Numbered from the stretch's first letter, positions 1-22,646 are shown. The stretch is 48,768 nucleotides of DNA from Candidatus Woesearchaeota archaeon (GCA_002685855.1 NYYS01000052.1:1-48768), one strand, 5' to 3'. Made by a program: numbers and translations. Notes: a model not told the origin generated them from the letters alone.

Positions 1-327
1 AGTCAGGAAACTGTTTTTGAGATTGCAAGCATGGCACGGCCTGAAGAGGTTCGACTGGTTCTTGAAGAATGTCTTAAGGGAAATTTTGCAGAGGCTAAGA
101 AGGCTCTTCTTGATGCACTTCTTAATCATGGTTTAAGTGGCATGGATGTGATAAAGCAGATTCAGTCAGAGGTTTGGAAGATGGATGCAGATGATAGGTT
201 GAAGCTTTTCATGACAAAAGCGTGTGGTGAATGCGAGTTTAGAATGGTTGAAGGAAGTGATGAGTTTGTTCAGCTTGAAGCGCTACTTGCGAATATTATT
301 CTTTTAGCGGACGAGAAAAATGAGTAA
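1..327 (+). CDS. rfcS: Replication factor C small subunit, C-terminal fragment (5' end lies outside the window)
   Basis: Frame 1 is open from base 1 (SQETVFEIASMARPEEV...). The segment LKGNFAEAKKALLDALLNHGLSGMDVIKQI...EFRMVEGSDEFVQLEALLA matches the C-terminal helical domain of archaeal RFC small subunits as I recall it. Confidence 0.75.
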   Translation, partial: SQETVFEIASMARPEEVRLVLEECLKGNFAEAKKALLDALLNHGLSGMDVIKQIQSEVWKMDADDRLKLFMTKACGECEFRMVEGSDEFVQLEALLANIILLADEKNE

Positions 328-392: not shown

Positions 393-1403
393 TTATTCGT
401 CTCCGCTGCTCACATCCTGGATAAGGATGTTTTTCTCGATGTATTGTCCATACTTGTAGGACATGTCAACTTCGAAGATGTCTGTGTAGATCTTGTCCTC
501 ATCGACGTTTCCTTCAATTACGCAGGTGATCTGAGCAGGACTTCCTTGGTAGAGTGTTACGGTTCCTGAGGTGATGTCTGAAAGGCCGCTACAACTCGTA
601 ATGGTTGCATCAGATTCGCTTTGAAGGCTGACTTCTACAAAGACCTTGTTTCTGTCGATGTTTGTTATGTCATCATCACATTTAGGTTCATGATCTGTGT
701 CGATGTCAAAAATTTCTCCACCGCCAACATGCGCTATAACAAAGCTTACCTGGATTTTATTCTGGCCCAATGCATTTTCTCTAAGGCTTGATACGTGTAC
801 AGGTCCCCCGCTGTTCTGAGGATCTTTTTGTTCGTTAAGGATACAGATGGTATCATCATTGATATTTCCCAGAACATCATCCTTGATGCAGACTTCTGAT
901 GTTGATTTTGTTGTGTAGTCGTAGCAGAGCTCTGCTCTCATAGTGATATCTGTGTTTCCCTGAAGGTCTGGCTCGTAGTTAAGAGGAGGATCATCTCCGA
1001 ATACTTCAAAGATGGCATCTCCCGGAAGAATTGTTCCATCAAAGTTTTTTCGAGCTCCTCTAAGGTCTGAACTAAGAGTTGTACAGAGATCTTCGCTCTC
1101 AATACCAAAGAAGCTTGGATTGATTCCTATTAAGCAGAGTTCAGCCCAATCGCTTTCACTTACAGGCATCAGATCATCCTCTCCAAAGTTTTCGAGTTGA
1201 ATTCCAACGGTAAAAGGGAATTTCCCATTATCAAAAATGGCATCAGGAGGCTGACCTTCCATAAATTTCATATTTACACCCACTATTCCACCTATAAAGG
1301 GTTTGTTCAGGCTCGTATCTCCTGTATCTGATGTGCAGGCGGAAATAAAAAGAACTGCTGCAAGTAGGGACACCATAAAGATTTTTTTGTTCATTATCAT
1401 CAT
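393..1403 (-). CDS. Predicted lipoprotein, paralog 1 of an unrecognised envelope module family
   Basis: 336-aa ORF with an N-terminal signal peptide and lipobox (LFISAC|TSD). GGAGGAG lies 7 nt upstream of the ATG. It shares ordered motifs (PP, CY-x-Y-T...C, G-PV, G-x-G, Y-x-Y) with ORFs 1427-2686, 2738-4843 and the C-terminus of 4840-6735. Confidence 0.8.
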   Translation of the reverse strand: MMIMNKKIFMVSLLAAVLFISACTSDTGDTSLNKPFIGGIVGVNMKFMEGQPPDAIFDNGKFPFTVGIQLENFGEDDLMPVSESDWAELCLIGINPSFFGIESEDLCTTLSSDLRGARKNFDGTILPGDAIFEVFGDDPPLNYEPDLQGNTDITMRAELCYDYTTKSTSEVCIKDDVLGNINDDTICILNEQKDPQNSGGPVHVSSLRENALGQNKIQVSFVIAHVGGGEIFDIDTDHEPKCDDDITNIDRNKVFVEVSLQSESDATITSCSGLSDITSGTVTLYQGSPAQITCVIEGNVDEDKIYTDIFEVDMSYKYGQYIEKNILIQDVSSGDE

Positions 1404-1426
1404 TTTAGTTCTCCTCCTTTAAATAA

Positions 1427-2686
1427 TTAACTAACTCGTTTAAATCGTACTGAGCGATAATCGGTTTCTCGGTAGCCATACCAGAGCTCGATGACAATAG
1501 GGGCTTCATAGGCAGACTTTGCTGTTGCATATTTTACATCATATTCACAGGTAAAGGTTCCTCTGCCGTCCTGAAGCCGCACTTCGTAGTCAGGAGTGCA
1601 TTTCAGACGTTCGGGGTCTCCGCTGAGACGGATATCGCCGATCCAGACCACGTCGAGGTCTTTTGAGGTGACTCTGCCCGGGAAATAGGGTGAGCATCTG
1701 CCAAGAGAAGCAGGATGAAAGATATCTCCTGTTCCTGTATTTGAGATCTCCATTGTGAAAAAGATCTTTCTTGGGGTATTTTCCTGTTCCAGAACGTTGA
1801 TGGTGACAGGAGCTCCATTGCTCTTCCAGGATTGGATTCCGGGCCTGCAGACCTTTTCTGTCTCTGAATAAGGAGCTGGATCGATGCAGATTTGGGGAGA
1901 TGCATAGGTTGTGTAGAGATAACAGTTTGTGACTAGGAAGGTTTGGTCTGTTTCGTCTAGACCGAGCGGCCAAGATTTGACATAGGCTTCCCAATCGATA
2001 AAATCGGTGCCTCCACCAGGATAAGTATAGGTGTCCCCCTCAAGATAGTACTCTCGGCCATTGTTCTGTCCAAAGTTGAGAAATACGCCAAATGTTCCAA
2101 TGAGCAGTTTCCCGTGGTTAAAATAGTCGATGCTGATTCCTTCTCTGTCATAGTCCAGATCAAAGACCCAGTCTCCACCATCTTTTCCAAAGCGAATGTC
2201 GAGGTCGTCCCAGAGATCACAGTCCCAGCCGAAATCTTCACACATGTCTCCGAAATCAAAGCCTAAATCCCAGTCACTTCCTTTTTTTGAACCAGAGAGA
2301 AAGAAGCAGTCGAATCTACCTTGCATGCCTCCTCCGATGCTTTCTAGATCAAAGGAGCAGTCTGCAAAGCTAAACTCATCTATCTCTACGCCTTCGACCT
2401 TGATCATGCCAGGATCGTAGCCAGATACAAAGAGGCCTCCTTGTGTGAGAGAAGCGCCTTTATTCATTAGTTTAACGCTGATATCAAAGGCGTTGTCTGA
2501 TTTATCTCCATCAGAATAGTAGTAGAGGGTGTGAGGAGGAGAATTTGGCTGCCAATCCATGACTACACCTTCAAATCCCTCATAATAGTATTGACGATCA
2601 CCTGTTTCTGGACCGCTGTTATAGATGCCTGAACAGCCTGATAAAAGAAGTGTTAGTGTTGCTGCTAAGATCCACATCCCTTTCAT
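1427..2686 (-). CDS. Predicted lipoprotein, paralog 2 of the envelope module family
   Basis: 419-aa ORF with a signal peptide and classical lipobox (LLLSGC|SG). Family motifs present: NSPPHTLY, NCYLYTTYASPQICID, NGAPVTINV, ISNTGTGDIF, ELWYGYRE. Confidence 0.8.
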   Translation of the reverse strand: MKGMWILAATLTLLLSGCSGIYNSGPETGDRQYYYEGFEGVVMDWQPNSPPHTLYYYSDGDKSDNAFDISVKLMNKGASLTQGGLFVSGYDPGMIKVEGVEIDEFSFADCSFDLESIGGGMQGRFDCFFLSGSKKGSDWDLGFDFGDMCEDFGWDCDLWDDLDIRFGKDGGDWVFDLDYDREGISIDYFNHGKLLIGTFGVFLNFGQNNGREYYLEGDTYTYPGGGTDFIDWEAYVKSWPLGLDETDQTFLVTNCYLYTTYASPQICIDPAPYSETEKVCRPGIQSWKSNGAPVTINVLEQENTPRKIFFTMEISNTGTGDIFHPASLGRCSPYFPGRVTSKDLDVVWIGDIRLSGDPERLKCTPDYEVRLQDGRGTFTCEYDVKYATAKSAYEAPIVIELWYGYRETDYRSVRFKRVS

Positions 2687-2737
2687 AGAGGAAAACTGGG
2701 AGAATACAGTATATAAAGGTTACGGAATGGTGTTCTG

Positions 2738-4843
2738 TTAGCAGGTAGCTTTTGTTGCAGCGAGTGCCAGATCATAAAGTTCCTTTAGAAGTGCTTGTGC
2801 TGCTCTTTTTTGTTGATCCACCGACGGCATACTTCCTCTATCAACGCCTGAAAATAGATCCTGCAATTCTGTGTCTGTGAGTGTTTTTGAAATAGCTCCT
2901 GAGGGAACTCCTTCTTCACATTTATGATTTGCTGTTGTTATGAAGGATCCGGTTGCGCTGTTTGGAATACCTTCCCAGTCTCCTGTTGCTAAGGAGTAGT
3001 CGAAGGGATCAAGAACTTCCAGGTCCTGATCCAAGATATCTATCTCGAAGGGGATTGTTTTTTCTGCAGTTAGTGTTCCAGCACAGATTTCCTTAACAGC
3101 AATTGTGTATTCTCCATGTACAGCTTCAAAGTAGAAAGGATTTGTAAGATAGCCATAGCTTGGATTTCCTTGTGCAGTTTCTTCAGGATAACCTGAAATT
3201 GTGTATGTATAGTCGCAATTAGGGGGCGAGGCAGGATTCTTTATCGAGAAGTAGATCTCCTGAGGGAGTTCTGATTCGTCTTCAATCTTCAAGACAACTT
3301 CTTCATTTACTTCAATAGTTGCAGTGAAGGGATCTGATTTGAAGTTTCCTGCTTCATCGTTTGCTGCAACAAATATGTAGGTGTAATCTCCTTGTTCCTC
3401 GAATGTGAAGTCAAGTTTTGCGGTTTTATTCTGATCGCATTCTTTGAAATCGTTTTCCTTTCCTTTAACGATGTCTCCGTCTTTATTCTTTATGTACTGG
3501 TTACAGTAGTCCTTGAGGTCGCTCCATGCATTTAAGCGAAGTTCAGAACCCGGATCAACATTCTTTACATGTCCTCTGTTTGCTAGGCTGTCTGAAAGAA
3601 CGATGTTGTAGTCAAGATCATGGACTGAGGTAAAGAGTTGTGCCAAGGGTTTCATACAGCAATAGCCAGACGAACAGTATTTCTGGACACAGAGTCCTTC
3701 TTTCTCTTTGTCGAGACATTCCTGAACATCGCAGGTGCAGCCCCAAGCTTTTGAGTCGATTTTTGTGTCGCAGTCTGGACTTCCGGGATTTTTTGCACAG
3801 TAGACACATTTGTCTTCGCAGGTGTCCCCAACTTTTACTTCGTAGCTGTTGCAGCGGCGTTCTGTTTTTGCAGGTGTTACTCTATAAATATCTCTTTGGA
3901 TCTCAACGTTTTTTGCAATGCTTGAACTGTAAACATAGGTGAGGTTTATTTGAAGAGGAGATATATAGTTGTAGTTTCCTATTGTTTCAAAGTTTTCGTC
4001 TAAATCCATGTCCTTGATCTGGCATCGTACTTGTGCTCTGTTGTCTTTAAGACGAACAGGGTTCGGTGTGCAGGTAAGGTTTTTTGTGGAAAGCCAGCCA
4101 TCAACATAGACCTGGTTCCAGGTTTCTCTGGACACATTTTGCAGGGTGCAAGCATCTTCAAAATCAACCTCTGCGATTGGAGAGAGCAACGATCCCGATC
4201 CTACGTTTTCTATTGTTAGTACAAATTTAGGTTGAACAAATCCTCCCCTTGGAAGGGTTTCAACTTTTACTTCTGTTACTGCAACGGGTGCACCTTGATC
4301 TGAAAAAGATTGATCCTCTGCTTCGCATACCTGTCTTCGAAGATCCTGGTTATAGATATCAAAGTCGACACAGATTGAACCGACAAAGGTTGTTTTATAG
4401 GGATAACAGAGGTTAACAAAAACCTGTGATTCGGGTTTTTGGCGGGGGCCGGAAAGGTTTTTTGCAAGGAGAATCGCAACTTCACACACATCTTTTTCTC
4501 CGCCGATAAAGTAGCGTCCTTTTCCTCTTCGTTTAAGATCTGTTCTGCATTGATCTGCGGGGCCTGCTATTTCTACAAAGTAAAGAGGGTCTAAGGTAAG
4601 GGTGATTAAGCCTCGCGCATTTCCAATAAGATCAAACGCACCTCTATTGTGTATCATGAGTGTGACAGGGAGTTCGGTTCCTTCATAGATCGTGTCGGGA
4701 GGAGCATTTTCCATGAACTCTATCTCCAATCCATCTCTTCCTTCAAAGTAAACAACTTCGTCTGATGAGCCGCCGGGGTAGGGACCGCACGCTGTGATAA
4801 AAAGAAGAAGAATGATTGAGAAGATCAAGAAGATTTTTTTCAT
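2738..4843 (-). CDS. Large predicted lipoprotein: paralog 3 module, then a cysteine-knot region and Ig-like C-terminal domains
   Basis: 701-aa ORF with lipobox LFITAC|GP. The N-terminal ~320 aa carry the family motifs (NAPPDTIY, NLCYPYKTTFVGSICVD, QGAPVAVTE, IENVGSGSLL, NLTYVYSSS). Then comes a cysteine-dense stretch of roughly 70 aa (CNSYEVKVGDTCEDKCVYCAK...SGYCCMKP), followed by beta-rich repeats. The start overlaps the upstream stop (ATGA at 4840-4843). Confidence 0.8.
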   Translation of the reverse strand: MKKIFLIFSIILLLFITACGPYPGGSSDEVVYFEGRDGLEIEFMENAPPDTIYEGTELPVTLMIHNRGAFDLIGNARGLITLTLDPLYFVEIAGPADQCRTDLKRRGKGRYFIGGEKDVCEVAILLAKNLSGPRQKPESQVFVNLCYPYKTTFVGSICVDFDIYNQDLRRQVCEAEDQSFSDQGAPVAVTEVKVETLPRGGFVQPKFVLTIENVGSGSLLSPIAEVDFEDACTLQNVSRETWNQVYVDGWLSTKNLTCTPNPVRLKDNRAQVRCQIKDMDLDENFETIGNYNYISPLQINLTYVYSSSIAKNVEIQRDIYRVTPAKTERRCNSYEVKVGDTCEDKCVYCAKNPGSPDCDTKIDSKAWGCTCDVQECLDKEKEGLCVQKYCSSGYCCMKPLAQLFTSVHDLDYNIVLSDSLANRGHVKNVDPGSELRLNAWSDLKDYCNQYIKNKDGDIVKGKENDFKECDQNKTAKLDFTFEEQGDYTYIFVAANDEAGNFKSDPFTATIEVNEEVVLKIEDESELPQEIYFSIKNPASPPNCDYTYTISGYPEETAQGNPSYGYLTNPFYFEAVHGEYTIAVKEICAGTLTAEKTIPFEIDILDQDLEVLDPFDYSLATGDWEGIPNSATGSFITTANHKCEEGVPSGAISKTLTDTELQDLFSGVDRGSMPSVDQQKRAAQALLKELYDLALAATKATC

Positions 4844-6735
4844 CCTATTACCCTCGCTGATGATCTTTCTTTCATTGTGTACTGATAACTTGTTCGTACG
4901 ATAAAGCTTCGGATCGCTTTTTGTTCCAGGCCGAGCAAGGCATCTTTGTCTTTAAGTATTAATCTGCAATGGCTTGTCTTGAAAGTTCTTCCAACATGAG
5001 GGTTTTCAAGAAGATAGAAATTATAGGCAGGATCCTCTTCGTCTGTTTCTGGATCTTTATGCCCAAAAAAAGTTTCTTTTGCTGGTGAGCAATCTGATAG
5101 TTCAAACTCTTTGGGAACCATGATGATGTTTTTATCTACACGTTCAACTTCCCCATTTGTCCAATCGTTTCCTATGGTGACACCAAAGCTCAGGTTTGAA
5201 TTCTCTTCTACAGGAATGGGATGGTTCATCTTCATCATACCTATTGAGACAGGACCGGGTGAATATGTCATGGTAGGGTCGTCGGTAATCTGAAGTTCCT
5301 GAAGAATATCTTTTTTCTCAGCCATCATTGCACGCCAAGCACCTTTATCAACAAATGTGAGTGGAGAGTAGCCCCAGGTTTCAAAGTTGAATGTTAGTGT
5401 TAAAATAAGTTGGTGTCTTCCTTTTGGAAGTGAGGGAATTTGGCATTCGATCGTATCTGCTACTTCATATTCTATTTCCAGTTCAGTAGGACTTGTTGTT
5501 CCAACGATGCCATCATCTGTTGCACAGCTTGCTTTGAGGTGGATGGGGTCCTCCAGTGTTTTTCCTGTGATGATCGCTAGAGCATAGAGCGGAGTTCCTT
5601 CTATGATCTCCTCTTCTGTAGGCTCGAACTCTTCAACATAGATACCTAACGGTTCGCCTTGGTTTTCTACTGTGCCCTGATAGTATTTTCCTGTGGCATA
5701 GGCTATGCTCTGCTCGTAGCCGAACATGAGCTTTTCATACATCCGCACTATTGAATCCCAGACGATATCCCAAAGTGCTTTCACGTGATCGAGTACTGCC
5801 ACAGGTGCAGATTGGAGTTGGGTAGGAATTACGATATGGCCGAGAAGAAGGATGAAGAAGATCACCCAGAAAATAACTTCGTAATAGAGCCGCCCCCAAT
5901 GAAAAATGCCTGTATCAAAGGAGGATTCACTAAAAAGAAATATACCTAACATAATAGGAAAAAAAGGCCATAGGCCAAAGAAAAAGTCAGGGATCAGATT
6001 ACTGAAAGGTCGGAGCAGGCTTACAACCAGAGGTAGGAAAAGGACGCACAACAATCCAACCCAATAGTAGTAGGAATCGCGCCAAGGTGCAAACGATAAA
6101 CCCTGCACTCTGCAAATTAGGGCGATGGCTATAATATAAAGGATGATAATAAGAAGCATTGAACTGGGAAATCTACTTATGCCTAATACAAAGGTGTCAA
6201 AGAGATGGATACTGAGAAGAAAGATTACAATTCCAATCGCCAATCCTCCTCCCTGTTCTTTGTGTCCTCCAAAAAAAGGGAAATTGCTTCCTCCACCACC
6301 CTTTTTTTTGCTTTCGCCCTTTCCTTTGCTTTCTGATCGTGGAGTGTACCCAAAGGGTGTTCGTGAAGGGGGAGGGGTTCTTCTTCTCCCGGCGCCGGAG
6401 GCGACGCCTGCCATTGTTGCTCCTGCTACTGCACCGGTTGCGGCTGCTGCTGCAACTCCAGGTCCTGAATAGGCAGAAGAGGGTGGTCGGGGTCCTGCAA
6501 TAGGGGTGCGGGATGCTTTGTAATCAGCATATTTGGTTTTGAGTTTGTCTTTAGCAGTTACGCCGAGGTCTTTTGTCTTTGTAATTGCCTTTCCACCTAG
6601 CTCCTTGCTCTTATCAACTGCTTTTGCACCAAGATCCTTTCCCTTATCAACAACATGGGTTTTAGCAGCATTTAATCCTTGTGCTGCTTTCCTTTTCAGG
6701 CTATTCATTAAGGCAGGGGGTATTTTTGGTGGCAT
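4840..6735 (-). CDS. Polytopic membrane protein: disordered basic N-terminus, about 5 TM helices, and a C-terminal extracytoplasmic paralog-4 module
   Basis: 631-aa ORF. N-terminus has 11-residue K-rich repeats (DKGKDLGAKAV/DKSKELGGKAI/TKTKDLGVTAK), an A/G tract and a P/R/G/K-rich linker. About five hydrophobic helices fall at aa ~175-313. The C-terminal ~270 aa carry family motifs (SPGPVSIGM, RTSYQYTMK). GAGGT lies upstream of the ATG. Confidence 0.8.
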   Translation of the reverse strand: MPPKIPPALMNSLKRKAAQGLNAAKTHVVDKGKDLGAKAVDKSKELGGKAITKTKDLGVTAKDKLKTKYADYKASRTPIAGPRPPSSAYSGPGVAAAAATGAVAGATMAGVASGAGRRRTPPPSRTPFGYTPRSESKGKGESKKKGGGGSNFPFFGGHKEQGGGLAIGIVIFLLSIHLFDTFVLGISRFPSSMLLIIILYIIAIALICRVQGLSFAPWRDSYYYWVGLLCVLFLPLVVSLLRPFSNLIPDFFFGLWPFFPIMLGIFLFSESSFDTGIFHWGRLYYEVIFWVIFFILLLGHIVIPTQLQSAPVAVLDHVKALWDIVWDSIVRMYEKLMFGYEQSIAYATGKYYQGTVENQGEPLGIYVEEFEPTEEEIIEGTPLYALAIITGKTLEDPIHLKASCATDDGIVGTTSPTELEIEYEVADTIECQIPSLPKGRHQLILTLTFNFETWGYSPLTFVDKGAWRAMMAEKKDILQELQITDDPTMTYSPGPVSIGMMKMNHPIPVEENSNLSFGVTIGNDWTNGEVERVDKNIIMVPKEFELSDCSPAKETFFGHKDPETDEEDPAYNFYLLENPHVGRTFKTSHCRLILKDKDALLGLEQKAIRSFIVRTSYQYTMKERSSARVIG

Positions 6736-6786
6736 AGCTCGACCTCTTTCTTTTAAAAATCGAGAAGAAGATATAAAAGCTTTTCG

Positions 6787-8472
6787 CTAAGAGTAGTCGA
6801 GCTCTATTTCTATTTCAGAAATAGTGAAATCTGTGTCTGGAATGATTTCAAGGCTGTTACTTCCACTTCTGACAAAGCTATCAATGTTTCTGTTTACTTC
6901 TATGTCGCGGGTGTCAAAGGCGACGTCCATGCCGTTAATAGATAGTGTGAAGCGTTTTCTGATATTGCTTTCTCCGAATCTGATTCGGATATCGACGTCG
7001 TAGGGTATGTCCAGATATTCTTCAAGTTCAGAGTCGGATTCTATATTTGTACAGGGTTTGGGACGGCTTCTGTCTCCATCGCGATATCCATTAGGACAGT
7101 CATCGCATTCTGTGGAAGAGACTGCTTCTTCACAAACTGATCCAAGGCCTGCAGCAGGCACGTCATCACACCAAAAGTTATCTTCGGTATCTTCGTAACA
7201 GCAGTCCTTATCATAAAAGACGCTGCAGCTTGCAGGACAATCGTCGTCTGTATCGTCACCACAGAGATCTTCACAGGGTTCGGGAGGGTTTCCTCGCTTA
7301 TCTTCATAGCCTGCAGCACAACGGTTGCAATCATCTTCTATATCTATAAAGCTGACACAACGGTCGTCTAATCGTTCGGGTTCTACATCGCACCAGAACT
7401 CTTCTTCATCAAAGCAACAGTCTTTGTCTTCATCTGCTTCACAGTCTGCAGGACATTTACCGTCGACATCCCCACACCTGGCACGGATCAAATCTTTTTC
7501 AACAAAATAGGTTCTATCCATGTAAAAGGTGTACAAAGGATTGAACTCGTCTTCCAGATCAACTTTAACCGAGAGTTGGTCGATGAGATAGGAGCCTGCA
7601 TAACTCACAAATTCGAGTTCGTTTTCTCCTTCAACTAAGTCAGTTGGATTTAGTTCTATATGATTCCTGACACCGCAGTCTGCTACTGCTGAAAAGATTC
7701 TTCTTCCGTTAAGACTGATTGAGAGCGGGCCTGCTTCTGATAGGGTACAGTCAGGGAAGAAGAAGAGTGTTGCCTCGTCCATATAGGTTTTCTCTTCATC
7801 GCTTAAAAAGAAGGTTTGCGTGCTTTCTGAACGAGAGATATCTGTAAGGTCTGCTGTGACCTGGATGCTTGTTAAGAGGTATTGATGGATGAGCCAGAAT
7901 GCCCAGCCAGGACTTGAAACTGTAAAGAAGAGTTCGTTCTCTTCTTCTAAGAGCGCACTAGGGAGTTGAATAGGAGCGGGGCTGCCTACAGAGTACTTAT
8001 CTTCCACGATCTGTTCTCCATTCAGATAGACAATAAGTCTTCCTTCTGCATCTTTAATGTTGAAGGAAAGTTGTACATTTTCTGAGAGTCCGGGATCTAG
8101 AGAAAAGGTAAGCGTGTCTGAAGTTTTTTCAAATGCAGAGTTCTTTACAAAGATAGACTCTGCTGATTCCAGGATGCCTGCATTGGTCGATGTAAGAATG
8201 CGAAAGCTTGGAAGGTCATGTTCTCGTTCATTATATTTAAGATGGGTGAGGGCACCGGGTGTTACAAAGAGGAGGGTGTTATTTTGTATGGTGGTTGGCG
8301 GATATCCTCCAGGACCTGGGCTTGGACCTGATCCTGGGCTTGGTGAATCTTCTAATAATCTGTCTCGCTCATCAGGCGGGAGAAAGAGGATGTAGATGAT
8401 GATAAGGGCGGCTATCACTATAACTAGAACTGCACTGCTCCCTGCGCTTTGTGCTCGCTTCTGCATAGTCAT
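6787..8472 (-). CDS. N-terminally anchored surface protein with a class-III (type IV pilin-like) signal candidate, three LNG-type beta modules and a duplicated acidic Cys-rich insert
   Basis: 561-aa ORF. The N-terminus MTMQKRA|QSAGSSAVLVIVIAALIIIYILF resembles archaeal prepilin signals ([KR]-[GA] then Q/S plus a hydrophobic stretch). A P/G/S linker follows. Three modules carry the [LI]NG-x-x-[IV] motif. There are two ~70-aa Cys/Asp/Glu-rich repeats. A TATA-like ACTTTAAATAC lies about 20 nt upstream of the ATG. Confidence 0.75.
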   Translation of the reverse strand: MTMQKRAQSAGSSAVLVIVIAALIIIYILFLPPDERDRLLEDSPSPGSGPSPGPGGYPPTTIQNNTLLFVTPGALTHLKYNEREHDLPSFRILTSTNAGILESAESIFVKNSAFEKTSDTLTFSLDPGLSENVQLSFNIKDAEGRLIVYLNGEQIVEDKYSVGSPAPIQLPSALLEEENELFFTVSSPGWAFWLIHQYLLTSIQVTADLTDISRSESTQTFFLSDEEKTYMDEATLFFFPDCTLSEAGPLSISLNGRRIFSAVADCGVRNHIELNPTDLVEGENELEFVSYAGSYLIDQLSVKVDLEDEFNPLYTFYMDRTYFVEKDLIRARCGDVDGKCPADCEADEDKDCCFDEEEFWCDVEPERLDDRCVSFIDIEDDCNRCAAGYEDKRGNPPEPCEDLCGDDTDDDCPASCSVFYDKDCCYEDTEDNFWCDDVPAAGLGSVCEEAVSSTECDDCPNGYRDGDRSRPKPCTNIESDSELEEYLDIPYDVDIRIRFGESNIRKRFTLSINGMDVAFDTRDIEVNRNIDSFVRSGSNSLEIIPDTDFTISEIEIELDYS

Positions 8473-8525
8473 CTACACAAACAGTAGTATTTAAAGTTAA
8501 CTGTTGAAAAAAAAAGAAAAAAATA

Positions 8526-8858
8526 TCAGCTTCTTGCAAGAGCAAAGACTGATTTTAAAGCCACGATAATGGTTGCTGGCACAAAGAGTGTTAGTATTGC
8601 TGTTAAGATATTACTTAATGCTTCCACTGCCAACACGCTTGCTCCCAGAGAAGAGACCAATACAAGGATTGCTCCGCTCACCATGAATTCATGGGCTTCA
8701 TGCGACTGAATATTGAGTAATCCGACGATAATACCCAGGACTACGAGAGACCAGCTCCAATTTGCAGAGATAGCTCCAACAGCACCCAGGATAACAGCTA
8801 AGATCACTCCTATCAGAAAGGCCCAGCTTCCTATTAGATTTCCAGATTTTTTTGCCAT
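8526..8858 (-). CDS. Small integral membrane protein (3-4 TM helices), function unknown
   Basis: The track ORF starts at a GTG (8870). The ATG at 8858 (MAKKSGNLIG...) has GGGGGTGA 8 nt upstream, so I prefer it. The protein is almost entirely hydrophobic helices. Same strand as the surface operon and directly upstream of it. Confidence 0.65.
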   Translation of the reverse strand: MAKKSGNLIGSWAFLIGVILAVILGAVGAISANWSWSLVVLGIIVGLLNIQSHEAHEFMVSGAILVLVSSLGASVLAVEALSNILTAILTLFVPATIIVALKSVFALARS

Positions 8859-9010
8859 AGTAGTATTCACCCCCTATGTTATGCTATTTTATAGAGATGG
8901 AGGTATTTAAAGCTTTTGGAATCCGCCCCCCCCCAAAAAAAAATTTATAAAGGGAACCACCCATTAATAAGTATAATAGTGTGTAAGTAATAGTGTGTGA
9001 GGTATAAAAA

Positions 9011-9217
9011 ATGGATAATTCAATAGTATTAGTAAGCATTGTTGGTGTTGTAGCTGTTGTGGCGCTCTTTACTATGGTGTATGGAGGGGGCTCTGTAGCA
9101 GATAGCCAAAAGGAAAATATAGGAGGACAGGCAACTACTTTTTCTGGGGGAGAAAGTGGCCATTGCGTTATATGTGAGGAAGGTGAAGAATGTGAATTTG
9201 GAGAGTACTTAACGTAG
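9011..9217 (+). CDS. Small membrane-anchored or secreted peptide with a C-terminal acidic Cys motif (hypothetical)
   Basis: 68-aa ORF with GAGGT 7 nt upstream of the ATG. It has an N-terminal hydrophobic helix (IVLVSIVGVVAVVALFTMV), then a G/S-rich segment ending CVICEEGEECEFGEY. The overlapping antisense ORF 8884-9282 translates to P/S/T-rich junk. Confidence 0.4.
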   Translation: MDNSIVLVSIVGVVAVVALFTMVYGGGSVADSQKENIGGQATTFSGGESGHCVICEEGEECEFGEYLT

Positions 9218-9334: not shown

Positions 9335-10375
9335 ATGAAGATTTTAAAGAAGGATATGAAACAGGAGGAACGGCTGCTTCTGGTTGAGAGCAGTGATGAT
9401 CTTTGGTATCTGAGTCATCTGATCGATCCTGAAGACAGAGTTAAAGGGAAGACTGAGCGGAAGATTAAGATAGGGAAGGAGGGGGATAGGAATATGAATG
9501 TTGTGCGGAAGCCGGTTACGCTTACTGTGAAGGTAGAGAAGGTGGAGTTTCAGGAGTATGGGAGCAATCTAAAGGTGTTGGGAACGATTGTGGATGGGCC
9601 GGACGATGTTCCAAGGGGGGATCATCATAGTTTTAGTGTTGAGATTGGGGATCAGCTCTGGGTGAAGAAGGAGGCTTGGCTGCCGTATCATCTTGAACAG
9701 TTGAAGGATGCTACAAAGCAGGCGGGAACGATTCTTATCTGTCTGTTTGACCGGGAGGAAGCTGCTTTTTATCTTTTGGAACGCAAGGGTATTCAGTTGT
9801 TGAGTCGGTTGAAGGGGAGTGTGCAGAAGAAGGATTATGAGAGCAAAGAGGGGAAGGATTTCTGGCAGGAGATTGTGAAACAGGTATGTGAGTATGATAA
9901 AAAGCATAAAAGCACTACAATTATTCTTGGAAGTCCTGCGTTCTGGAAGGACTATGTTCTGAAAGTATTATCTGATGATGTAAAGAAGAAGGTTATTCCT
10001 ACGAGCTGTTCTGATCTTGGTGAAGGCGGTGTAAAGGAGATCATGAAGCGGCCTGAGTTGAAGGCTGCGTTGGAGAAGGATAAAACAGCTAAAGAAGAGG
10101 CTCTTGTTGAGTCTGCACTGGCTGCTCTTCCGAAGAGTATGCTTGCCTATGGTTTACAGGAGGTGCGTGAGGCTGCTGAGCAGGGGAATGCAAAGGTTGT
10201 GTTGGTTACAACGGAATGTATTCAGAAGGCGCGCCAGGAAGAGAAGTATAAGGAGCTGGATCAGGTTCTGAAACAGACAAGCCAGTCACAGGGAGAGGTT
10301 CATATTCTTACGCTCATAACAAAAAAGATCGATGCCCTGGGCGGCATTGCGGCGATTAAACGATGGAGCTCATAG
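9335..10375 (+). CDS. pelA: Pelota (aDom34) ribosome-rescue / mRNA surveillance factor
   Basis: 346 aa. The N-terminus MKILKKDMKQEE..LLVESSDDLWYLSHLIDPEDRV is typical of Pelota, and length and domain layout fit. TATA-like CCTTTTAAATAG lies about 25 nt upstream, which suggests a leaderless transcript. Confidence 0.9.
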   Translation: MKILKKDMKQEERLLLVESSDDLWYLSHLIDPEDRVKGKTERKIKIGKEGDRNMNVVRKPVTLTVKVEKVEFQEYGSNLKVLGTIVDGPDDVPRGDHHSFSVEIGDQLWVKKEAWLPYHLEQLKDATKQAGTILICLFDREEAAFYLLERKGIQLLSRLKGSVQKKDYESKEGKDFWQEIVKQVCEYDKKHKSTTIILGSPAFWKDYVLKVLSDDVKKKVIPTSCSDLGEGGVKEIMKRPELKAALEKDKTAKEEALVESALAALPKSMLAYGLQEVREAAEQGNAKVVLVTTECIQKARQEEKYKELDQVLKQTSQSQGEVHILTLITKKIDALGGIAAIKRWSS

Positions 10376-11154
10376 AAGAGATTAAAAAGAAGGTTGAGTA
10401 TCGGTCGTTGCCTGATGCTTTTGTAGAAGGATTTCTTTCAGCAGAGCTTAAGGAGAGGAAGCTAACTGAAGAGGAGATAAAGAATCCAAAGAATAGAAAC
10501 CATAAGGCTGTTGTGAGCAGTGTGCGTTCTAAGTTACGTGAGGTGTATGGTGCTTTTTTATTGAACGATTATCGAAAGCTTCCTGAACTAATCAATAGAC
10601 TCGATGAAACGGCAGAAGTAAACGACTTTGTTCGGATCCTGAAAGCACATCGATCAACAAAGGAACGGGTTAAGGTGTATCCTTTCCTGTATGAACAGAT
10701 CTTTAAGATTACAGGGAAGCCAAAGAGCATTCTTGATCTTGCGTGTGGATTAAATCCTGTGAGTTACTGTTTTCTTGGGTGTCATCCGGAGTATTATGCA
10801 TACGAGTTAACAGAGAGGGATGCAGATCTGTTAAATCAGTTTTTTATGAAAGTAAAAATAAAGGGAAAATGTGATGCTGCTGATCTGACAAAAAATGGAA
10901 AATTTCCAAAAACAGATCTTTGTTTTTTATTTAAGGCAGTTGACACATTAGAAACCGTCCAGAAGGGAAGCGTAAAGTCTCTTCTTTCAAAAATAAAATC
11001 AGAATGGCTTGTTGTGAGTTTTCCGTCTAAGAGTCTTGGAGGAAAGAAACCTATTCCTGCATCTAAAAGGAAATGGTTTGAAAGACTTCTTGAAAAAAAG
11101 GAGTGGCAGATTGTGGAAACTGAGAACGAGCTTTTTTATATTGTTAAAAATTAA
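10363..11154 (+). CDS. 16S rRNA (guanine1405-N7)-methyltransferase-like protein (Arm/Rmt/FmrO family homolog)
   Basis: 263 aa with motifs AHRSTKER, ILDLACGLNPVSY, LCFLFKAVDTLE, VVSFPSKSLGGKK and ELFYIVKN. They are colinear with the RmtB/ArmA motifs I recall (HASTKER, VLDIACGLNP, SFPTRSLGG, ELIYLIKKN). The gene overlaps the pelota 3' end by 13 nt. Confidence 0.8.
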   Translation: MELIEEIKKKVEYRSLPDAFVEGFLSAELKERKLTEEEIKNPKNRNHKAVVSSVRSKLREVYGAFLLNDYRKLPELINRLDETAEVNDFVRILKAHRSTKERVKVYPFLYEQIFKITGKPKSILDLACGLNPVSYCFLGCHPEYYAYELTERDADLLNQFFMKVKIKGKCDAADLTKNGKFPKTDLCFLFKAVDTLETVQKGSVKSLLSKIKSEWLVVSFPSKSLGGKKPIPASKRKWFERLLEKKEWQIVETENELFYIVKN

Positions 11155-11300
11155 GGATGTAATCACCACTTTTTCCGACGAATTAGTGTGGAAAACTACT
11201 ATCACTGGATTGTGAAAAATCGTAACATATAAATAGTAGTTATACAAAATAGTGAGTAAAAAGGGGTGAAGTAAAAAATCCTACTTTTTGGAGGTAGAGA

Positions 11301-12104
11301 ATGATCGTGAAAGAAGAATTCTTAAGCAAGTTGCGTCGATACTTCTCTCTAAACTTGTATGAAGTAAAGATCTGGACAGCATTGCTGTCAAGAGGGGTTA
11401 GTACTGCGGGGGAACTTTCTGATATTGCTAACGTGCCACGGAGCCGAAGCTATGATGTGTTGGAAAGTCTTGAAAAAAAGGGCTTTGTTGTAATGAAGTT
11501 AGGCAAGCCTATCAAGTATATCTCGGTGCCTCCCAAAGAGGTCTTAGAACGAGTTAAGAAGAATGTCAAATCAGACGCTGATGAAAAGATAAAAAGACTT
11601 TCGAGCCTAAAAAGCGGGGAAGTTGTGGAAGAGCTAAATAGTTTGCACACGCAAGGGGTTGAATTGGTAGAACCTTCTGACCTGAGCGGAAGCTTAAAGG
11701 GAAGACATAATCTTTACAACCATCTTGAGCTCACCATCAGGAATGCAGAGAACTCGGTGATTATTATGACAACATCACAAGGACTTTTGCGAAAGGTGGA
11801 AGGGTTAAAACCTGTTTTTGAGCAGATCAAGAAACGCGGTGTAAATATTAGAATTGCTGCACCATTGACAAAGGAGACAGATGATGCTGTGAAAGACATA
11901 AAGGGTGTTGCCGAAGTTCGAAACACAACCAGCAAGGCACGCTTCTGTGTTGTGGATGGAAAAGAGGTCATGTTCATGGTAATGAATGACTCAGATGTTC
12001 ATCCCACCTATGATGTTGGTATCTGGGTAAATACGCCCTTCTTTGCATCTGCACTATCTGAGCTTTTTGACACAGCCTGGAAAGGTATGAAGATAAAGGC
12101 TTAA
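11301..12104 (+). CDS. TrmB-family transcriptional regulator
   Basis: 267 aa. The N-terminal wHTH (LNLYEVKIWTALLSRGVSTAGELSDIANVPRSRSYDVLESLEKKGFV) is characteristic of TrmB. The C-terminal domain has a TrmB-like length. GGAGGT lies upstream of the ATG. Confidence 0.85.
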   Translation: MIVKEEFLSKLRRYFSLNLYEVKIWTALLSRGVSTAGELSDIANVPRSRSYDVLESLEKKGFVVMKLGKPIKYISVPPKEVLERVKKNVKSDADEKIKRLSSLKSGEVVEELNSLHTQGVELVEPSDLSGSLKGRHNLYNHLELTIRNAENSVIIMTTSQGLLRKVEGLKPVFEQIKKRGVNIRIAAPLTKETDDAVKDIKGVAEVRNTTSKARFCVVDGKEVMFMVMNDSDVHPTYDVGIWVNTPFFASALSELFDTAWKGMKIKA

Positions 12105-12128
12105 ATAGTTCCTTTTTTTCTTTTTTTT

Positions 12129-12494
12129 ATGGTTTTTTCTAAGACGTTACTAGAAGCTCAAAAGGAGGTTGAAGAGTTCTTAGTAGAAAGAGATTGGCTT
12201 CCAAAAGACAGAGAGGGAAGATACTATACGCTTGCACATATGACTGAGGAGTTGGGAGAGGTGGCACGGTGTGTGACTCTTATTGAAAGTAGGCGCGGAG
12301 ATAAGGACAAAGAGAGATATCAAGAAGATCTTAGGATGGAACTCGGTGATCTTCTTTATCATATATTTAAGATATCTTTGGCATACAAGATCGATGTTGC
12401 TGATGCCTTTGCGTTTATTATGGAAAAGAACAAGAAGAAATATCCTGTTGAGACCTATGCGAAAAAGGGACAACACGATGGGGATCAACCTTAG
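12129..12494 (+). CDS. MazG-like nucleotide pyrophosphohydrolase domain protein
   Basis: 121 aa. The motifs LAHMTEELGEVAR ... ELGDLLYHIFKISLAYKIDVADAFAFIMEKNKKKY match the all-alpha NTP pyrophosphatase (MazG) EExxE/D pattern. Confidence 0.8.
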   Translation: MVFSKTLLEAQKEVEEFLVERDWLPKDREGRYYTLAHMTEELGEVARCVTLIESRRGDKDKERYQEDLRMELGDLLYHIFKISLAYKIDVADAFAFIMEKNKKKYPVETYAKKGQHDGDQP

Positions 12495-12640
12495 ATAGCA
12501 GGTATATTCACCAGAAGAGGGGAGTTAAAGGAAGATTAGATATTCACATCTCAACCACTTTTGAGGGGGATGATAAGGAGTTCTGACATTTCCGTGATTT
12601 TAATGAAAAGTTATTTATAGTTTCAAGATAATCTGAGGTC

Positions 12641-12850
12641 ATGACAAAATATACTATATTAATTGAGAAAGATGAAGATGGATGGCTAGTTTCTGAAGTG
12701 GTTGAGTTACCCGGGTGTCACACTCAGGCTAAAACCATGGATCAGCTCCTAGAGAGGACTAAAGAAGCCATTAAAGCTTACTTGGGAGATGAAGAGTTCA
12801 CTCCGGAAATCGTTCAAGAGTTTGTCGGTGTACAAACACTAGAGGTTTGA
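12641..12850 (+). CDS. hicB: HicB-family antitoxin (UPF0150-like)
   Basis: 69 aa. YTILIEKDEDGWLVSEVVELPGCHTQAKTMDQLLERTKEAIKAYL is a typical HicB N-terminal fold sequence. Its stop overlaps the hicA start region. Confidence 0.85.
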   Translation: MTKYTILIEKDEDGWLVSEVVELPGCHTQAKTMDQLLERTKEAIKAYLGDEEFTPEIVQEFVGVQTLEV

Positions 12851-13086
12851 TTTTCTTGAAGTTACCTAGTTTAACAGGAAAGAACGTAGCTAAGATAATA
12901 GAAAAGTTTGGTTTTGTCTATGGCCACACCACAGGAAGTCATATGATCTATAAACACCCTGATGGAAGAAGAACAACCATTCCACATCATTCAGGAGAAG
13001 AAATTGGTCCTGGACTTTTAAGTAAGATCATTAAAAAGGATTTAGGATTGACAAGAGATGAATTTTTTAAAATGATCAAAAAGTAA
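12847..13086 (+). CDS. hicA: HicA-family mRNA interferase toxin
   Basis: KLPSLTGKNVAKIIEKFGFVYGHTTGSHMIYKHPDGRRTTIPHHSG matches the HicA (YcfA) dsRBD-like motif. Start is TTG at 12847 (track) or, more likely, TTG at 12856 (MKLPSL), 10 nt after GAGGT. Confidence 0.85.
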   Translation: MIFLKLPSLTGKNVAKIIEKFGFVYGHTTGSHMIYKHPDGRRTTIPHHSGEEIGPGLLSKIIKKDLGLTRDEFFKMIKK

Positions 13087-13130
13087 CAGGAACATTATTT
13101 GCCCTTAGACCGATTGTTAGATTGAGTTCT

Positions 13131-22639: not shown

Positions 22640-22646
22640 TGATTGT

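What the first reader, a model, noticed from the sequence alone, without database searches (positions are those of the whole stretch)
393..8870. Operon with four paralogous copies of an unrecognised ~300-aa envelope module (three lipobox proteins and one polytopic membrane protein) behind a pilin-like anchored protein: candidate undescribed cell-surface system
Operon structure:
- Six same-strand genes (minus strand, 8858 down to 393) have tight junctions.
- There is an ATGA stop/start overlap at 4840-4843.
- GGAGG, GAGGT or GGTGA motifs lie 5-9 nt before the starts at 1403, 6735 and 8858.
- A TATA-like element lies about 20 nt before 8472.

Lipoboxes: ORFs 393-1403, 1427-2686 and 2738-4843 each start with a signal peptide plus lipobox (LFISAC, LLLSGC, LFITAC).

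Shared module: read side by side, these three proteins and the C-terminal ~270 aa of membrane protein 4840-6735 share the same ordered motifs.
- A: GVNMKFMEGQPPDAIF / GVVMDWQPNSPPHTLY / GLEIEFMENAPPDTIY
- B: AELCYDYTTKSTSEVCIKD / TNCYLYTTYASPQICIDP / VNLCYPYKTTFVGSICVDF
- C: SGGPVHVSS / NGAPVTINV / QGAPVAVTE / SPGPVSIGM
- D: IAHVGGGEIF / ISNTGTGDIF / IENVGSGSLL
- E: DMSYKYGQY / ELWYGYRET / NLTYVYSSS / RTSYQYTMK

I cannot assign this module to any named family. No pilus ATPase, platform protein, archaeosortase or recognisable S-layer gene sits in the operon.

Interpretation (inference): a lipid-anchored, paralog-built extracellular assembly tied to a membrane protein with a cytoplasmic disordered tail. 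That is the kind of apparatus a small-genome episymbiotic archaeon could use for host contact.
Basis: partly seen in the sequence, partly recalled or inferred. Interest (0 to 1): 0.85.

Follow-up and report, generated by a model that had tools for sequence, protein, structure and literature searches.

The report
Conserved DPANN surface lipoprotein gene cluster
A tiny symbiotic-type archaeon (Woesearchaeota) carries a conserved, undescribed set of cell-surface genes, and in related genomes the same genes are fused to enzymes that cut bacterial cell walls, so it may be the contact or attack apparatus these cells use on neighbouring cells.

Summary
The six minus-strand ORFs are real. A (393-1403), B (1427-2686) and C (2738-4843) are lipobox lipoproteins sharing a ~300-aa two-beta-sandwich module, with significant paralogy.

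None of the six proteins matches Pfam or NCBIfam; sequence searches of solved structures (E, D, the C extension) and fold searches with models of A and D gave nothing specific.

The order E-D-C(-B-A-A') recurs in about 30 Woesearchaeota/Nanoarchaeota loci, usually between Pelota and RFC. E-D-C is the core. F (8526-8870) is not part of it.

New evidence: the D family has 773 representative clusters. Among the 149 best, 33 have long C-terminal extensions, and these carry peptidoglycan hydrolase domains of seven Pfam families. Hydrolase-bearing D genes occupy the orthologous slot of the same cluster, and in one genome the SLT domain sits on the C-type lipoprotein instead.

Best reading (inference): a membrane- and lipid-anchored surface assembly with exchangeable outer domains, used to engage neighbouring cells. 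The window's version has no hydrolase. Physical assembly and function are unproven.

The parts
393..1403 (-). A: 336-aa lipobox lipoprotein (LFISAC). It consists of the bare two-beta-sandwich module with 6 invariant extracellular Cys.
   Evidence: ORF. About 31 orthologues at 36-49% identity, all named 'hypothetical'. Invariant C23, C160, C172, C187, C242, C271, C294. AF2 model pLDDT 86, pTM 0.80, all-beta with two domains.
1427..2686 (-). B: 419-aa lipobox lipoprotein (LLLSGC). Same module, with an acidic Trp/Asp/Gly-rich insertion of roughly 100 aa in domain 1.
   Evidence: B-C 3.8e-40. Orthologues of 427-467 aa sit in the same position.
3854..4786 (-). C module (aa 20-330 of the 701-aa lipoprotein C, ORF 2738-4843, lipobox LFITAC).
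   Evidence: The C-type gene lies directly downstream of D in 21 of 21 metagenome loci that extend far enough.
2741..3853 (-). C-terminal extension of C (aa 331-701). A Cys-rich stretch (aa ~331-400) is shared with C orthologues. The following ~300 aa were found only in the window.
   Evidence: Family alignment. tblastn finds no match to the extension in the 24 related loci held when it was run. No Pfam or PDB sequence match. In L019 the same position holds an SLT domain.
6256..6735 (-). D N-terminal tail (aa 1-160): low-complexity, Lys/Ala/Gly/Pro-rich, variable in length between orthologues. Read here as cytoplasmic.
   Evidence: Translation. Orthologue alignment shows it is unalignable and of variable length.
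5830..6249 (-). D membrane domain: 5 predicted TM helices (aa ~163-302), weakly conserved.
   Evidence: Hydropathy. AF2 helices H4-24, 31-51, 63-85, 92-110 and 116-143 of the 160-631 construct. Few conserved residues.
4843..5646 (-). D ectodomain (aa ~364-631): two beta-sandwich domains with four conserved Cys (one invariant, three in at least 90% of sequences). Probable very distant copy of the A/B/C module.
   Evidence: AF2 pLDDT above 90 in every 10-residue block from construct residue 201 (aa 360) to the end. hhalign: 43% for the whole ectodomain, 83.5% for domain 2. Family of 773 representative clusters. Peptidoglycan hydrolase domains follow this ectodomain in relatives.
6787..8472 (-). 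E: 561-aa protein with one N-terminal hydrophobic anchor (KRAQSAGSS + 20 hydrophobic residues + LPPxDR). Its beta-rich body carries three 'LNG' repeats.
   Evidence: Orthologues of 377-558 aa lie directly upstream of D in all 20 metagenome loci with upstream sequence. No Pfam or PDB sequence match.
6973..7500 (-). Insertion in E (aa 325-500): two tandem ~68-aa acidic repeats with 10 Cys each. It is absent from the 11 E orthologues aligned with it.
   Evidence: Alignment; sequence. A similar module is a separate 160-aa ORF between E and D in L047.
8526..8870 (-). F: 114-aa (110 aa from the ATG at 8858) multi-TM protein. It is adjacent and on the same strand but is not a conserved part of the cluster.
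   Evidence: Relatives have only ~50-340 bp (about 100 bp in most) between Pelota and E. tblastn finds no homologue in the 24 related loci held when it was run.

Best explanation
The locus encodes a lineage-specific cell-surface assembly of Woesearchaeota-type DPANN archaea.

Proposed anatomy:
- D is the membrane base. It has a disordered N-terminal tail read as cytoplasmic, five TM helices, a stalk helix and a two-beta-sandwich ectodomain.
- C is translationally coupled to D through the ATGA overlap.
- C, B and A are lipid-anchored paralogues of the same module. They are proposed to pack with the D ectodomain into a hetero-oligomeric, disulfide-stabilised surface structure.
- E is a further subunit, anchored by its N-terminal helix.

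Proposed function: the conserved scaffold presents exchangeable outer domains towards neighbouring cells.
- In many relatives these outer domains are murein hydrolases at the C-terminus of D or C. They would bind and cut a bacterial wall during attachment, feeding or killing.
- In the window's lineage they are instead Cys-rich acidic modules (in E and C) and a unique 300-aa extension (in C). This suggests a different target surface.

Shown: paralogy, lipoboxes, predicted topology, synteny, hydrolase fusions. Inferred: physical assembly, outward orientation of the add-ons, and a role in cell-cell contact.
For: - All five conserved products are predicted extracytoplasmic, with lipobox Cys and conserved Cys residues.
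- A, B and C are paralogues; D domain 2 is probably homologous.
- The A and D models are confident (pLDDT 86 and 86.5). Both show two beta domains, each ending in a long hairpin, and both retrieve the same generic tandem-beta-sandwich neighbours.
- The order E-D-C(-B-A-A') is kept in about 30 loci, in a housekeeping neighbourhood between Pelota and RFC.
- D and C overlap or abut in the window and in L003, L005 and L023.
- The D family has 773 representative clusters. Of the 149 best, 33 have long C-terminal extensions. These carry SLT (11), Amidase_2 (3), and one each of Muramidase, Amidase_3, M23, Glucosaminidase and NlpC/P60.
- At least three of the SLT domains (P0154, P0146, P0100) keep the E-S / G-[LI]-M-Q / Y-N-x-G pattern in the expected spacing.
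- Hydrolase-bearing D genes sit in the orthologous slot of the same cluster in L021 and L022.
- In L019 the SLT domain is on the C-type lipoprotein instead.
- The variable parts are the protein termini and insertions, while the module itself is conserved.
- Published work already proposes that large extracellular SLT proteins of Woese-/Pacearchaeota bind bacterial walls (PMC8204110, PMC9723730).
Against: - The window's own D and C have no hydrolase domain, and none was found in the window ORFs scanned (those of at least 150 aa, plus F and the RFC fragment).
- Only about 12% of the best 149 D-family representatives carry one.
- No interaction between the proteins has been shown.
- Fusion could simply reflect use of D as a convenient surface anchor.
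- Homology of D to the module is marginal.
- TATA-like boxes before several genes mean the genes need not be co-transcribed.
- No expression data are available.
- The host of this lineage is unknown.
Confidence: 0.45

Rival explanations
1. The proteins are the archaeon's own envelope scaffold, an S-layer-like or sub-S-layer lattice built from lipid- and membrane-anchored beta-sandwich paralogues. They would be needed for cell integrity. The hydrolase fusions would be secondary add-ons that exploit an abundant surface anchor.
For: - The locus is in the core genome and strictly syntenic next to housekeeping genes.
- The modules are Ig-like beta-sandwiches, as in known archaeal S-layer proteins (own knowledge; fold class).
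- Most family members, including the window's, carry no hydrolase.
- Four or five distinct conserved paralogues would suit a structural lattice.
Against: - No match to any S-layer family in Pfam or NCBIfam for the six window proteins; the PDB sequence searches run on E, D and the C extension found none either.
- Hydrolases of seven families were recruited independently, to two different subunits. That is more than expected for a passive wall.
- The termini and insertions are lineage-specific, unlike a purely structural protein.
Confidence: 0.25
2. It is a surface display platform for scavenging. The complex would hold enzymes and binding domains at the cell surface to break down free murein fragments and other polymers for nutrient uptake, without specific contact to a living host.
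For: - Muramidase, amidase, glucosaminidase and endopeptidase types all occur. Together they could dismantle murein completely.
- Peptidoglycan degradation and 'vampiristic' recycling have been proposed for Woesearchaeota (PMC9723730).
Against: - No transporter gene is conserved in the cluster.
- Membrane-tethered enzymes reach only material touching the cell.
- The window's version has no recognisable enzyme.
Confidence: 0.15
3. D is an enzyme or transporter that matures or exports the neighbouring lipoproteins. One candidate role is the missing archaeal lipoprotein signal peptidase. On this view A, B and C are merely its substrates.
For: - A polytopic membrane protein is always encoded next to lipobox proteins.
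- The archaeal lipoprotein signal peptidase has not been identified (PMC12462473).
Against: - The TM region is the least conserved part of D and has no invariant polar residue. The conserved part is the ectodomain.
- D probably shares its ectodomain fold with the lipoproteins.
- The family appears confined to Woesearchaeota/Nanoarchaeota-type genomes, whereas lipoproteins are widespread in archaea (PMC12462473).
- PDB sequence hits to the TM part are generic hydrophobic matches such as Piezo and RyR.
Confidence: 0.05

Closest known systems
Large extracellular murein lytic-transglycosylase (SLT/GH23) proteins noted in Woesearchaeota and Pacearchaeota (Castelle et al. 2021, PMC8204110, 'fam00969'; Vigneron et al. 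2022, PMC9723730)
   Same: D-family members of about 1000-1200 aa with C-terminal SLT domains occur in the same lineages. The published proposal, binding or degrading bacterial walls, is the same functional idea.
   Different: Those papers describe single annotated proteins. They do not describe the TM and ectodomain part, the E-D-C-B-A cluster or the paralogous lipoproteins. The window's D lacks the SLT domain. I could not verify that fam00969 is identical to the D family.
Archaeal lipobox lipoproteins lipidated by AliA/AliB (Hong et al. 2025, PMC12462473)
   Same: A, B and C have a signal peptide plus lipobox with a conserved Cys. AliA is reported to be present in DPANN.
   Different: That work defines an anchoring pathway, not a functional system. 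None of A, B or C belongs to a characterised lipoprotein family. AliA was not looked for in this genome.
Archaeal S-layer glycoproteins built from Ig-like domains, such as Haloferax csg and Nitrosopumilus SLP (own knowledge, not tested here)
   Same: Extracellular beta-sandwich domains anchored to the membrane by lipid or a TM segment. Possible lattice formation.
   Different: No sequence or fold match was found. Here there are several short distinct paralogues plus a polytopic protein, rather than one large repeating protein. There are also the hydrolase fusions.
Specialised peptidoglycan hydrolases attached to envelope machines, such as T4SS VirB1, flagellar FlgJ and T6SS TagX (PMC5061870 lists TagX; the rest is own knowledge)
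   Same: A murein-cutting domain is physically coupled to a multi-protein surface apparatus so that cutting is local.
   Different: Those enzymes cut the producer's own wall to let a machine assemble. Here the producer is an archaeon, a group that normally lacks murein (PMC8204110), so the target would be another cell. There is no homology of the scaffold.
Archaeal type IV filament (TFF) systems (bioRxiv 10.64898/2026.04.22.720090)
   Same: Some E orthologues start with [KR][GA]Q followed by a hydrophobic helix, like a class III signal peptide.
   Different: The cluster has no ATPase, platform protein or prepilin peptidase. The motif is absent in 15 of 26 E orthologues. True pilins near the L024 cluster look different (KRGQAALEF...).

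Membership tests
Archaeal lipobox lipoproteins | N-terminal signal peptide ending in [LVI][ASTVI][GAS]C | tested here: met
   ISAC (A), LSGC (B) and ITAC (C) follow hydrophobic stretches. The Cys is invariant in 28 A orthologues and near-universal in the B and C families.
Archaeal lipobox lipoproteins | Lipidation machinery (AliA, arCOG02177) present in the genome; thioether-linked archaeol on the Cys | not testable with these tools
   Only 48.8 kb of the genome is available and there are no biochemical data. PMC12462473 reports AliA in DPANN in general.
Type IV filament (pilus-like) system | Secretion ATPase, platform protein and class III signal peptidase encoded with the pilin | tested here: not met
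   None of the cluster genes matches these families. Neighbours in 8 looked-up loci show none.
Type IV filament (pilus-like) system | Class III signal peptide on the filament subunit ([KR][GA] followed by a hydrophobic helix) | tested here: inconclusive
   The window's E has KRA-QSAGSS followed by a hydrophobic helix. Only 11 of 26 orthologues fit [KR][GA]Q; others have KLAQS or KKGDEP.
Peptidoglycan hydrolases (SLT, Amidase_2/3, Muramidase, M23, Glucosaminidase, NlpC/P60) | Presence of the catalytic domain | tested here: not met
   No such domain in any of the six window proteins or in the other window ORFs scanned. It is present in orthologues of D and of C.
S-layer protein families | Sequence match to a described S-layer domain or a solved S-layer structure | tested here: not met
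   Pfam and NCBIfam are negative for all six window proteins. PDB sequence search was run on E, D and the C extension and found no S-layer match. Foldseek on the A and D models gave TM-scores of at most 0.21, with generic beta-sandwich hits only.
S-layer protein families | Formation of a 2-D lattice covering the cell; high abundance | not testable with these tools
   Needs cryo-ET or proteomics.
CARDB / Ig-like beta-sandwich superfamily | Beta-sandwich fold with a profile match to the family | tested here: inconclusive
   The fold class is beta-sandwich. Only 2 of 28 A orthologues give a sub-threshold CARDB hit (best E 0.057).
D-family membrane proteins (defined here; possibly fam00969 of PMC8204110) | Five TM helices followed by the conserved FNFETWAY / NGPV ectodomain, encoded between E-type and C-type genes | tested here: met
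   The window's D matches 773 representative clusters. Model. Position conserved.

The most novel reading that the evidence does not exclude
E-D-C(-B-A) is a dedicated, previously unrecognised cell-cell contact organelle of Woesearchaeales/Pacearchaeales-type DPANN archaea. It would be a conserved lipoprotein and membrane-protein scaffold whose exchangeable outer domains are matched to the wall of the partner cell: murein hydrolases of seven families, Cys-rich modules, or unique extensions. If so, the outer-domain content of this one locus would predict, genome by genome, whether an uncultured DPANN archaeon lives on bacteria (hydrolase-bearing) or on something else (as in this window).
Probability: 0.3. 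Interest if true: 0.85.

Novelty: categorically new. Interest (0 to 1): 0.72.

Why it matters
How DPANN archaea recognise, attach to and exploit other cells is largely unknown outside a few cultured pairs. Which Woesearchaeota have bacterial rather than archaeal partners is an open question.

This locus supplies a concrete, widespread candidate. The D family has 773 clusters at 50% identity, and the five conserved protein families (A-E) have no annotation.
- The repeated fusion of its subunits to wall-cutting enzymes makes the host-contact hypothesis testable. Routes include complex modelling, metaproteomics, enzyme assays on murein, and imaging of contact sites.
- It links the long-noted 'large SLT proteins' of these archaea to a defined multi-gene system.
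- It provides a set of new beta-sandwich families that merit Pfam entries.

If instead the proteins form the cell's own wall, that would be the first description of the envelope of this large uncultured group.

Tried and rejected
Searches that led nowhere:
- The search for homologous proteins with full-length D returned nothing; 8000 low-complexity candidates swamped it. The D ectodomain alone returned only itself. The word index does not reach ~30% identity orthologues. D relatives came from fetched loci and from the exhaustive HMMER search.
It worked with hits.
A2 worked.
- Pfam and NCBIfam on all six proteins, and Pfam on every member of the A and D alignments, gave no consistent hit.
- PDB sequence search for E, the C extension and D gave nothing, or only generic TM matches (Piezo, RyR, TACAN) that I regard as compositional.
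- Foldseek against PDB and viral structures gave only generic tandem beta-sandwich proteins at TM-scores of at most 0.22.
- Rfam and tRNA scans of the window were empty.
- The sigma-70 promoter scan was at background level and is not relevant to archaea.

Ideas considered and set aside:
- Type IV pilus system: no ATPase, platform protein or peptidase.
- ABC-type uptake system with binding lipoproteins: no ABC genes, and the lipoproteins have the wrong fold class.
- D as a lipoprotein-processing enzyme: the TM part is poorly conserved.
- An internal duplication of the module (domain 1 versus domain 2): not supported, probability 2% or less within the A, C and D families.
- E as a further copy of the module: hhalign probability below 1%.
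Full report
**1. The observation**

The window has six minus-strand ORFs:
- A, 393-1403, 336 aa
- B, 1427-2686, 419 aa
- C, 2738-4843, 701 aa
- D, 4840-6735, 631 aa
- E, 6787-8472, 561 aa
- F, 8526-8870, 114 aa (110 aa from the ATG at 8858)

Gene junctions are short: 23, 51, 51 and 53 nt. The D stop overlaps the C start as ATGA. Shine-Dalgarno-like GGAGG, GAGGT and GGGGGTGA precede A, D and F. TATA-like boxes precede E, and also B, D and F. The genes therefore form a tight same-strand cluster, but a single operon is not shown.

A, B and C begin with a hydrophobic stretch and a lipobox: ISAC, LSGC and ITAC.
- The Cys is invariant in 28 A orthologues.
- A strict lipobox pattern is met in 34/38 A-type, 19/20 B-type and 22/28 C-type relatives. 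Ten of the eleven misses still show a Cys after the hydrophobic stretch; the eleventh is an N-terminally truncated ORF.

**2. Paralogy**

A, B and C are significantly related.
- BLASTP: A-C 8e-17, B-C 9e-13, A-B 1e-4.
- Profile-profile on family alignments: A-C 1.4e-17, B-C 3.8e-40, A-B 1.5e-10.

The D ectodomain is not significant pairwise or with 12-sequence profiles (probability below 1%). With a 160-sequence D profile the picture changes.
- The C module aligns over 246 columns, full-length and collinear.
- The probability is 43%, E 2.4e-4, score 35.7. Thirty column-shuffled controls reached at most 18.8, and the reversed profile 18.5.
- Domain by domain, C domain 2 against D domain 2 gives 83.5% (E 8e-6). 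Domain 1 is undetectable.

My conclusion is three firm copies and one probable, very distant copy.

**3. Structure**

AF2 on A with its orthologues gives pLDDT 86 and pTM 0.80. The model is all-beta with two domains, each closing with a long hairpin.

AF2 on D(160-631) with 55 family members gives pLDDT 86.5. Every 10-residue block from construct residue 201 (aa 360) to the end has mean pLDDT above 90, most of them 95 or higher. The model has five TM helices, a long stalk helix, then two beta domains with the same order of elements as in A.

Foldseek against the PDB finds nothing specific for either model (TM-score at most 0.21). Both retrieve the same generic set of tandem beta-sandwich proteins: the P. 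furiosus STT3/AglB C-terminal domain, integrin alpha legs, transglutaminase barrels, complement MG domains and Gram-positive adhesins. The viral library gives nothing either.

Sequence-based family searches were equally empty.
- Pfam and NCBIfam are negative for all six proteins.
- Pfam is negative for every member of the A and D alignments.
- PDB sequence searches are negative, or give only generic hydrophobic matches.

D has a K/A/G/P-rich N-terminal tail of about 160 aa, variable in length between orthologues. Four ectodomain Cys are conserved, one invariant and three in at least 90% of sequences. I therefore read the topology as N-terminus inside and C-terminus outside.

**4. Relatives and context**

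A has about 31 orthologues at 36-49% identity. All are 'hypothetical' proteins from Woesearchaeota/Nanoarchaeota MAGs.

In genome loci the order is PheRS-TrmB-FmrO-Pelota | E-D-C-B-A(-A') | ... RFC small subunit. The window has the same neighbours. This is a vertically inherited core-genome region of a DPANN archaeon.

An independent metagenome scan seeded on the D ectodomain returned 23 loci.
- A C-type lipoprotein follows D in 21 of 21 loci that extend far enough.
- An E-type gene precedes D in 20 of 20.
- B and A (and A') follow in about half.

More distant versions are E-D-C only (L024, L043, L044) or D-C only (L023). E-D-C is therefore the core, and B, A and A' are later paralogue additions.

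F has no homologue in any of the 24 related loci held when it was searched. Relatives have only a short (~50-340 bp) spacer between Pelota and E.

**5. The functional clue**

An exhaustive HMMER search with D(160-631) finds 773 representative clusters (50% identity level) at E of 1e-3 or better, and 530 at 1e-10 or better.

Of the 149 best representatives, 33 have more than 120 aa after the ectodomain. Scanning these 33 against Pfam gives only peptidoglycan hydrolases:
- SLT: 11
- Amidase_2: 3
- Muramidase, Amidase_3, Peptidase_M23, Glucosaminidase and NlpC/P60: 1 each

At least three of the SLT domains (P0154, P0146, P0100) keep the E-S / G-[LI]-M-Q / Y-N-x-G pattern in the expected spacing.

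The hydrolase-bearing D genes are orthologues in the same cluster.
- L021 (GCA_043818175.1): E-D(Muramidase+Amidase_2, 1107 aa)-C-B-A-...-RFC.
- L022 (GCA_016928155.1): Pelota-E-D(SLT, 1033 aa)-three lipoproteins-...-RFC.
- L023: D(Amidase_2)-C.
- L019 (UBA525): the SLT domain, 37.6 bits, sits at the C-terminus of the C-type lipoprotein instead.

Seven enzyme families were thus recruited to two different subunits of one cluster. That argues that the outer end of this assembly meets murein. Murein is a bacterial polymer normally absent from archaea (PMC8204110). Castelle et al. and Vigneron et al. noted large extracellular SLT proteins in Woese- and Pacearchaeota and proposed attachment to, or attack on, bacteria (PMC8204110, PMC9723730). 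Neither describes the membrane and ectodomain part, the cluster or the lipoprotein paralogues. Five literature searches found no description of it.

**6. The window's own version**

The window's D ends right after the ectodomain, and no hydrolase domain was found in the window ORFs scanned (those of at least 150 aa, plus F and the RFC fragment). Instead there are add-ons not seen in the related loci they were compared with.
- E carries a 176-aa insertion made of two acidic repeats with 10 Cys each (6973-7500).
- C carries a Cys-rich stretch shared with its orthologues, plus a unique extension of about 300 aa.
- B carries an acidic Trp/Asp-rich insertion that is conserved in B orthologues.

A module like the E insertion is a separate ORF between E and D in L047.

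The pattern is a conserved scaffold with lineage-specific termini and insertions.

**7. Interpretation**

Best reading (confidence 0.45): a membrane- and lipid-anchored hetero-oligomeric surface structure that presents exchangeable outer domains to neighbouring cells. In hydrolase-bearing lineages it would bind and cut bacterial walls. In this window it probably targets a different surface.

Shown: paralogy, anchors, predicted topology, synteny and the fusions. Inferred: assembly and role.

Rivals:
- The cell's own wall lattice (0.25).
- A scavenging display platform (0.15).
- D as a lipoprotein-processing or export protein (0.05). This is disfavoured because the TM part is the least conserved region.

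The start of E resembles a class III signal peptide in 11 of 26 orthologues only. No pilus machinery is encoded nearby, so 'pilin-like' remains unproven.

**8. Verdict**

The finding is real and more interesting than chance paralogy. It is a widespread, unannotated, DPANN-specific surface gene cluster with no relative in Pfam, NCBIfam or the PDB, and with an independent fusion-based link to bacterial cell walls.

Noticed in passing
window 6973-7500 (-); L047:6722-7204 (+): The window's E contains two tandem ~68-aa acidic repeats with 10 Cys each (CGDxDxxCPAxC...DKDCC[FY]...FWCD...). They are absent from the 11 E orthologues aligned with it. In L047 a similar module is a stand-alone 160-aa ORF between E and D, so it behaves as a mobile accessory module of the cluster.
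   Followed up: partly
window 8526-8870 (-): F is a 114-aa protein with about four hydrophobic segments and no Cys. It sits between Pelota and E only in this window. It has no homologue in the 24 related loci held when it was searched and no family match.
   Followed up: partly
window 9011-9217 (+): A 68-aa ORF with one hydrophobic segment and a C-terminal CxxCxxxxxC motif lies in the 464-bp spacer between F and Pelota. It may be a small membrane protein gene or may be spurious.
   Followed up: no
window ~1950-2520 (-), B aa ~57-247: Relative to A and C, B has an insertion of roughly 100 aa in domain 1. It is very rich in Asp, Trp, Gly and Phe (…GSDWDLGFDFGDMCEDFGWDCDLWDDLD…). B orthologues of 427-467 aa keep it.
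   Followed up: partly
window 22647-24149 (-): A 500-aa protein with a clear CARDB domain (E 1.9e-13) is another predicted surface protein of this genome. It lies next to a winged-helix/DUF7343 regulator (21770-22696).
   Followed up: no
L024:8424-9436 (+): Two canonical archaeal pilin genes (MFNKRGQAALEFLSTYGWAFLVIL…) lie about 3.4 kb downstream of an E-D-C cluster. They show what a true class III signal peptide looks like in these lineages, and that E differs from it.
   Followed up: no
L036:6972-8909 (+): The N-terminal tail of this D orthologue carries a CxxCxGxGxCxxCxGxG zinc-finger-like motif (CIDCSGRGKCRTCEGTGKV). The tails of D proteins vary greatly between lineages.
   Followed up: no
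L014:9950-11932 (+): In one Nanoarchaeota MAG the A and A' genes occur as a pair with no E, D, C or B within 10 kb upstream. The A-type pair can therefore be separated from the core.
   Followed up: partly
window 1-327 and 9335-16324: The flanking synteny RFC small subunit | cluster | Pelota-FmrO-TrmB-PheRS beta/alpha is conserved in several Woesearchaeota MAGs. The rest of the window holds the ribosomal protein operon with SecY, a LemA protein, an M48 peptidase and a Hef-like helicase-nuclease. No rRNA or tRNA gene was found in 48.8 kb.
   Followed up: partly
L001:12392-13235; L003:12672-14478; L021:8597-9001: Small secreted proteins very rich in Tyr, Asn and Gly (…YGGYGYGYGYEDYP…) are encoded just downstream of the A/A' genes in several relatives. 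They are not present in the window.
   Followed up: no
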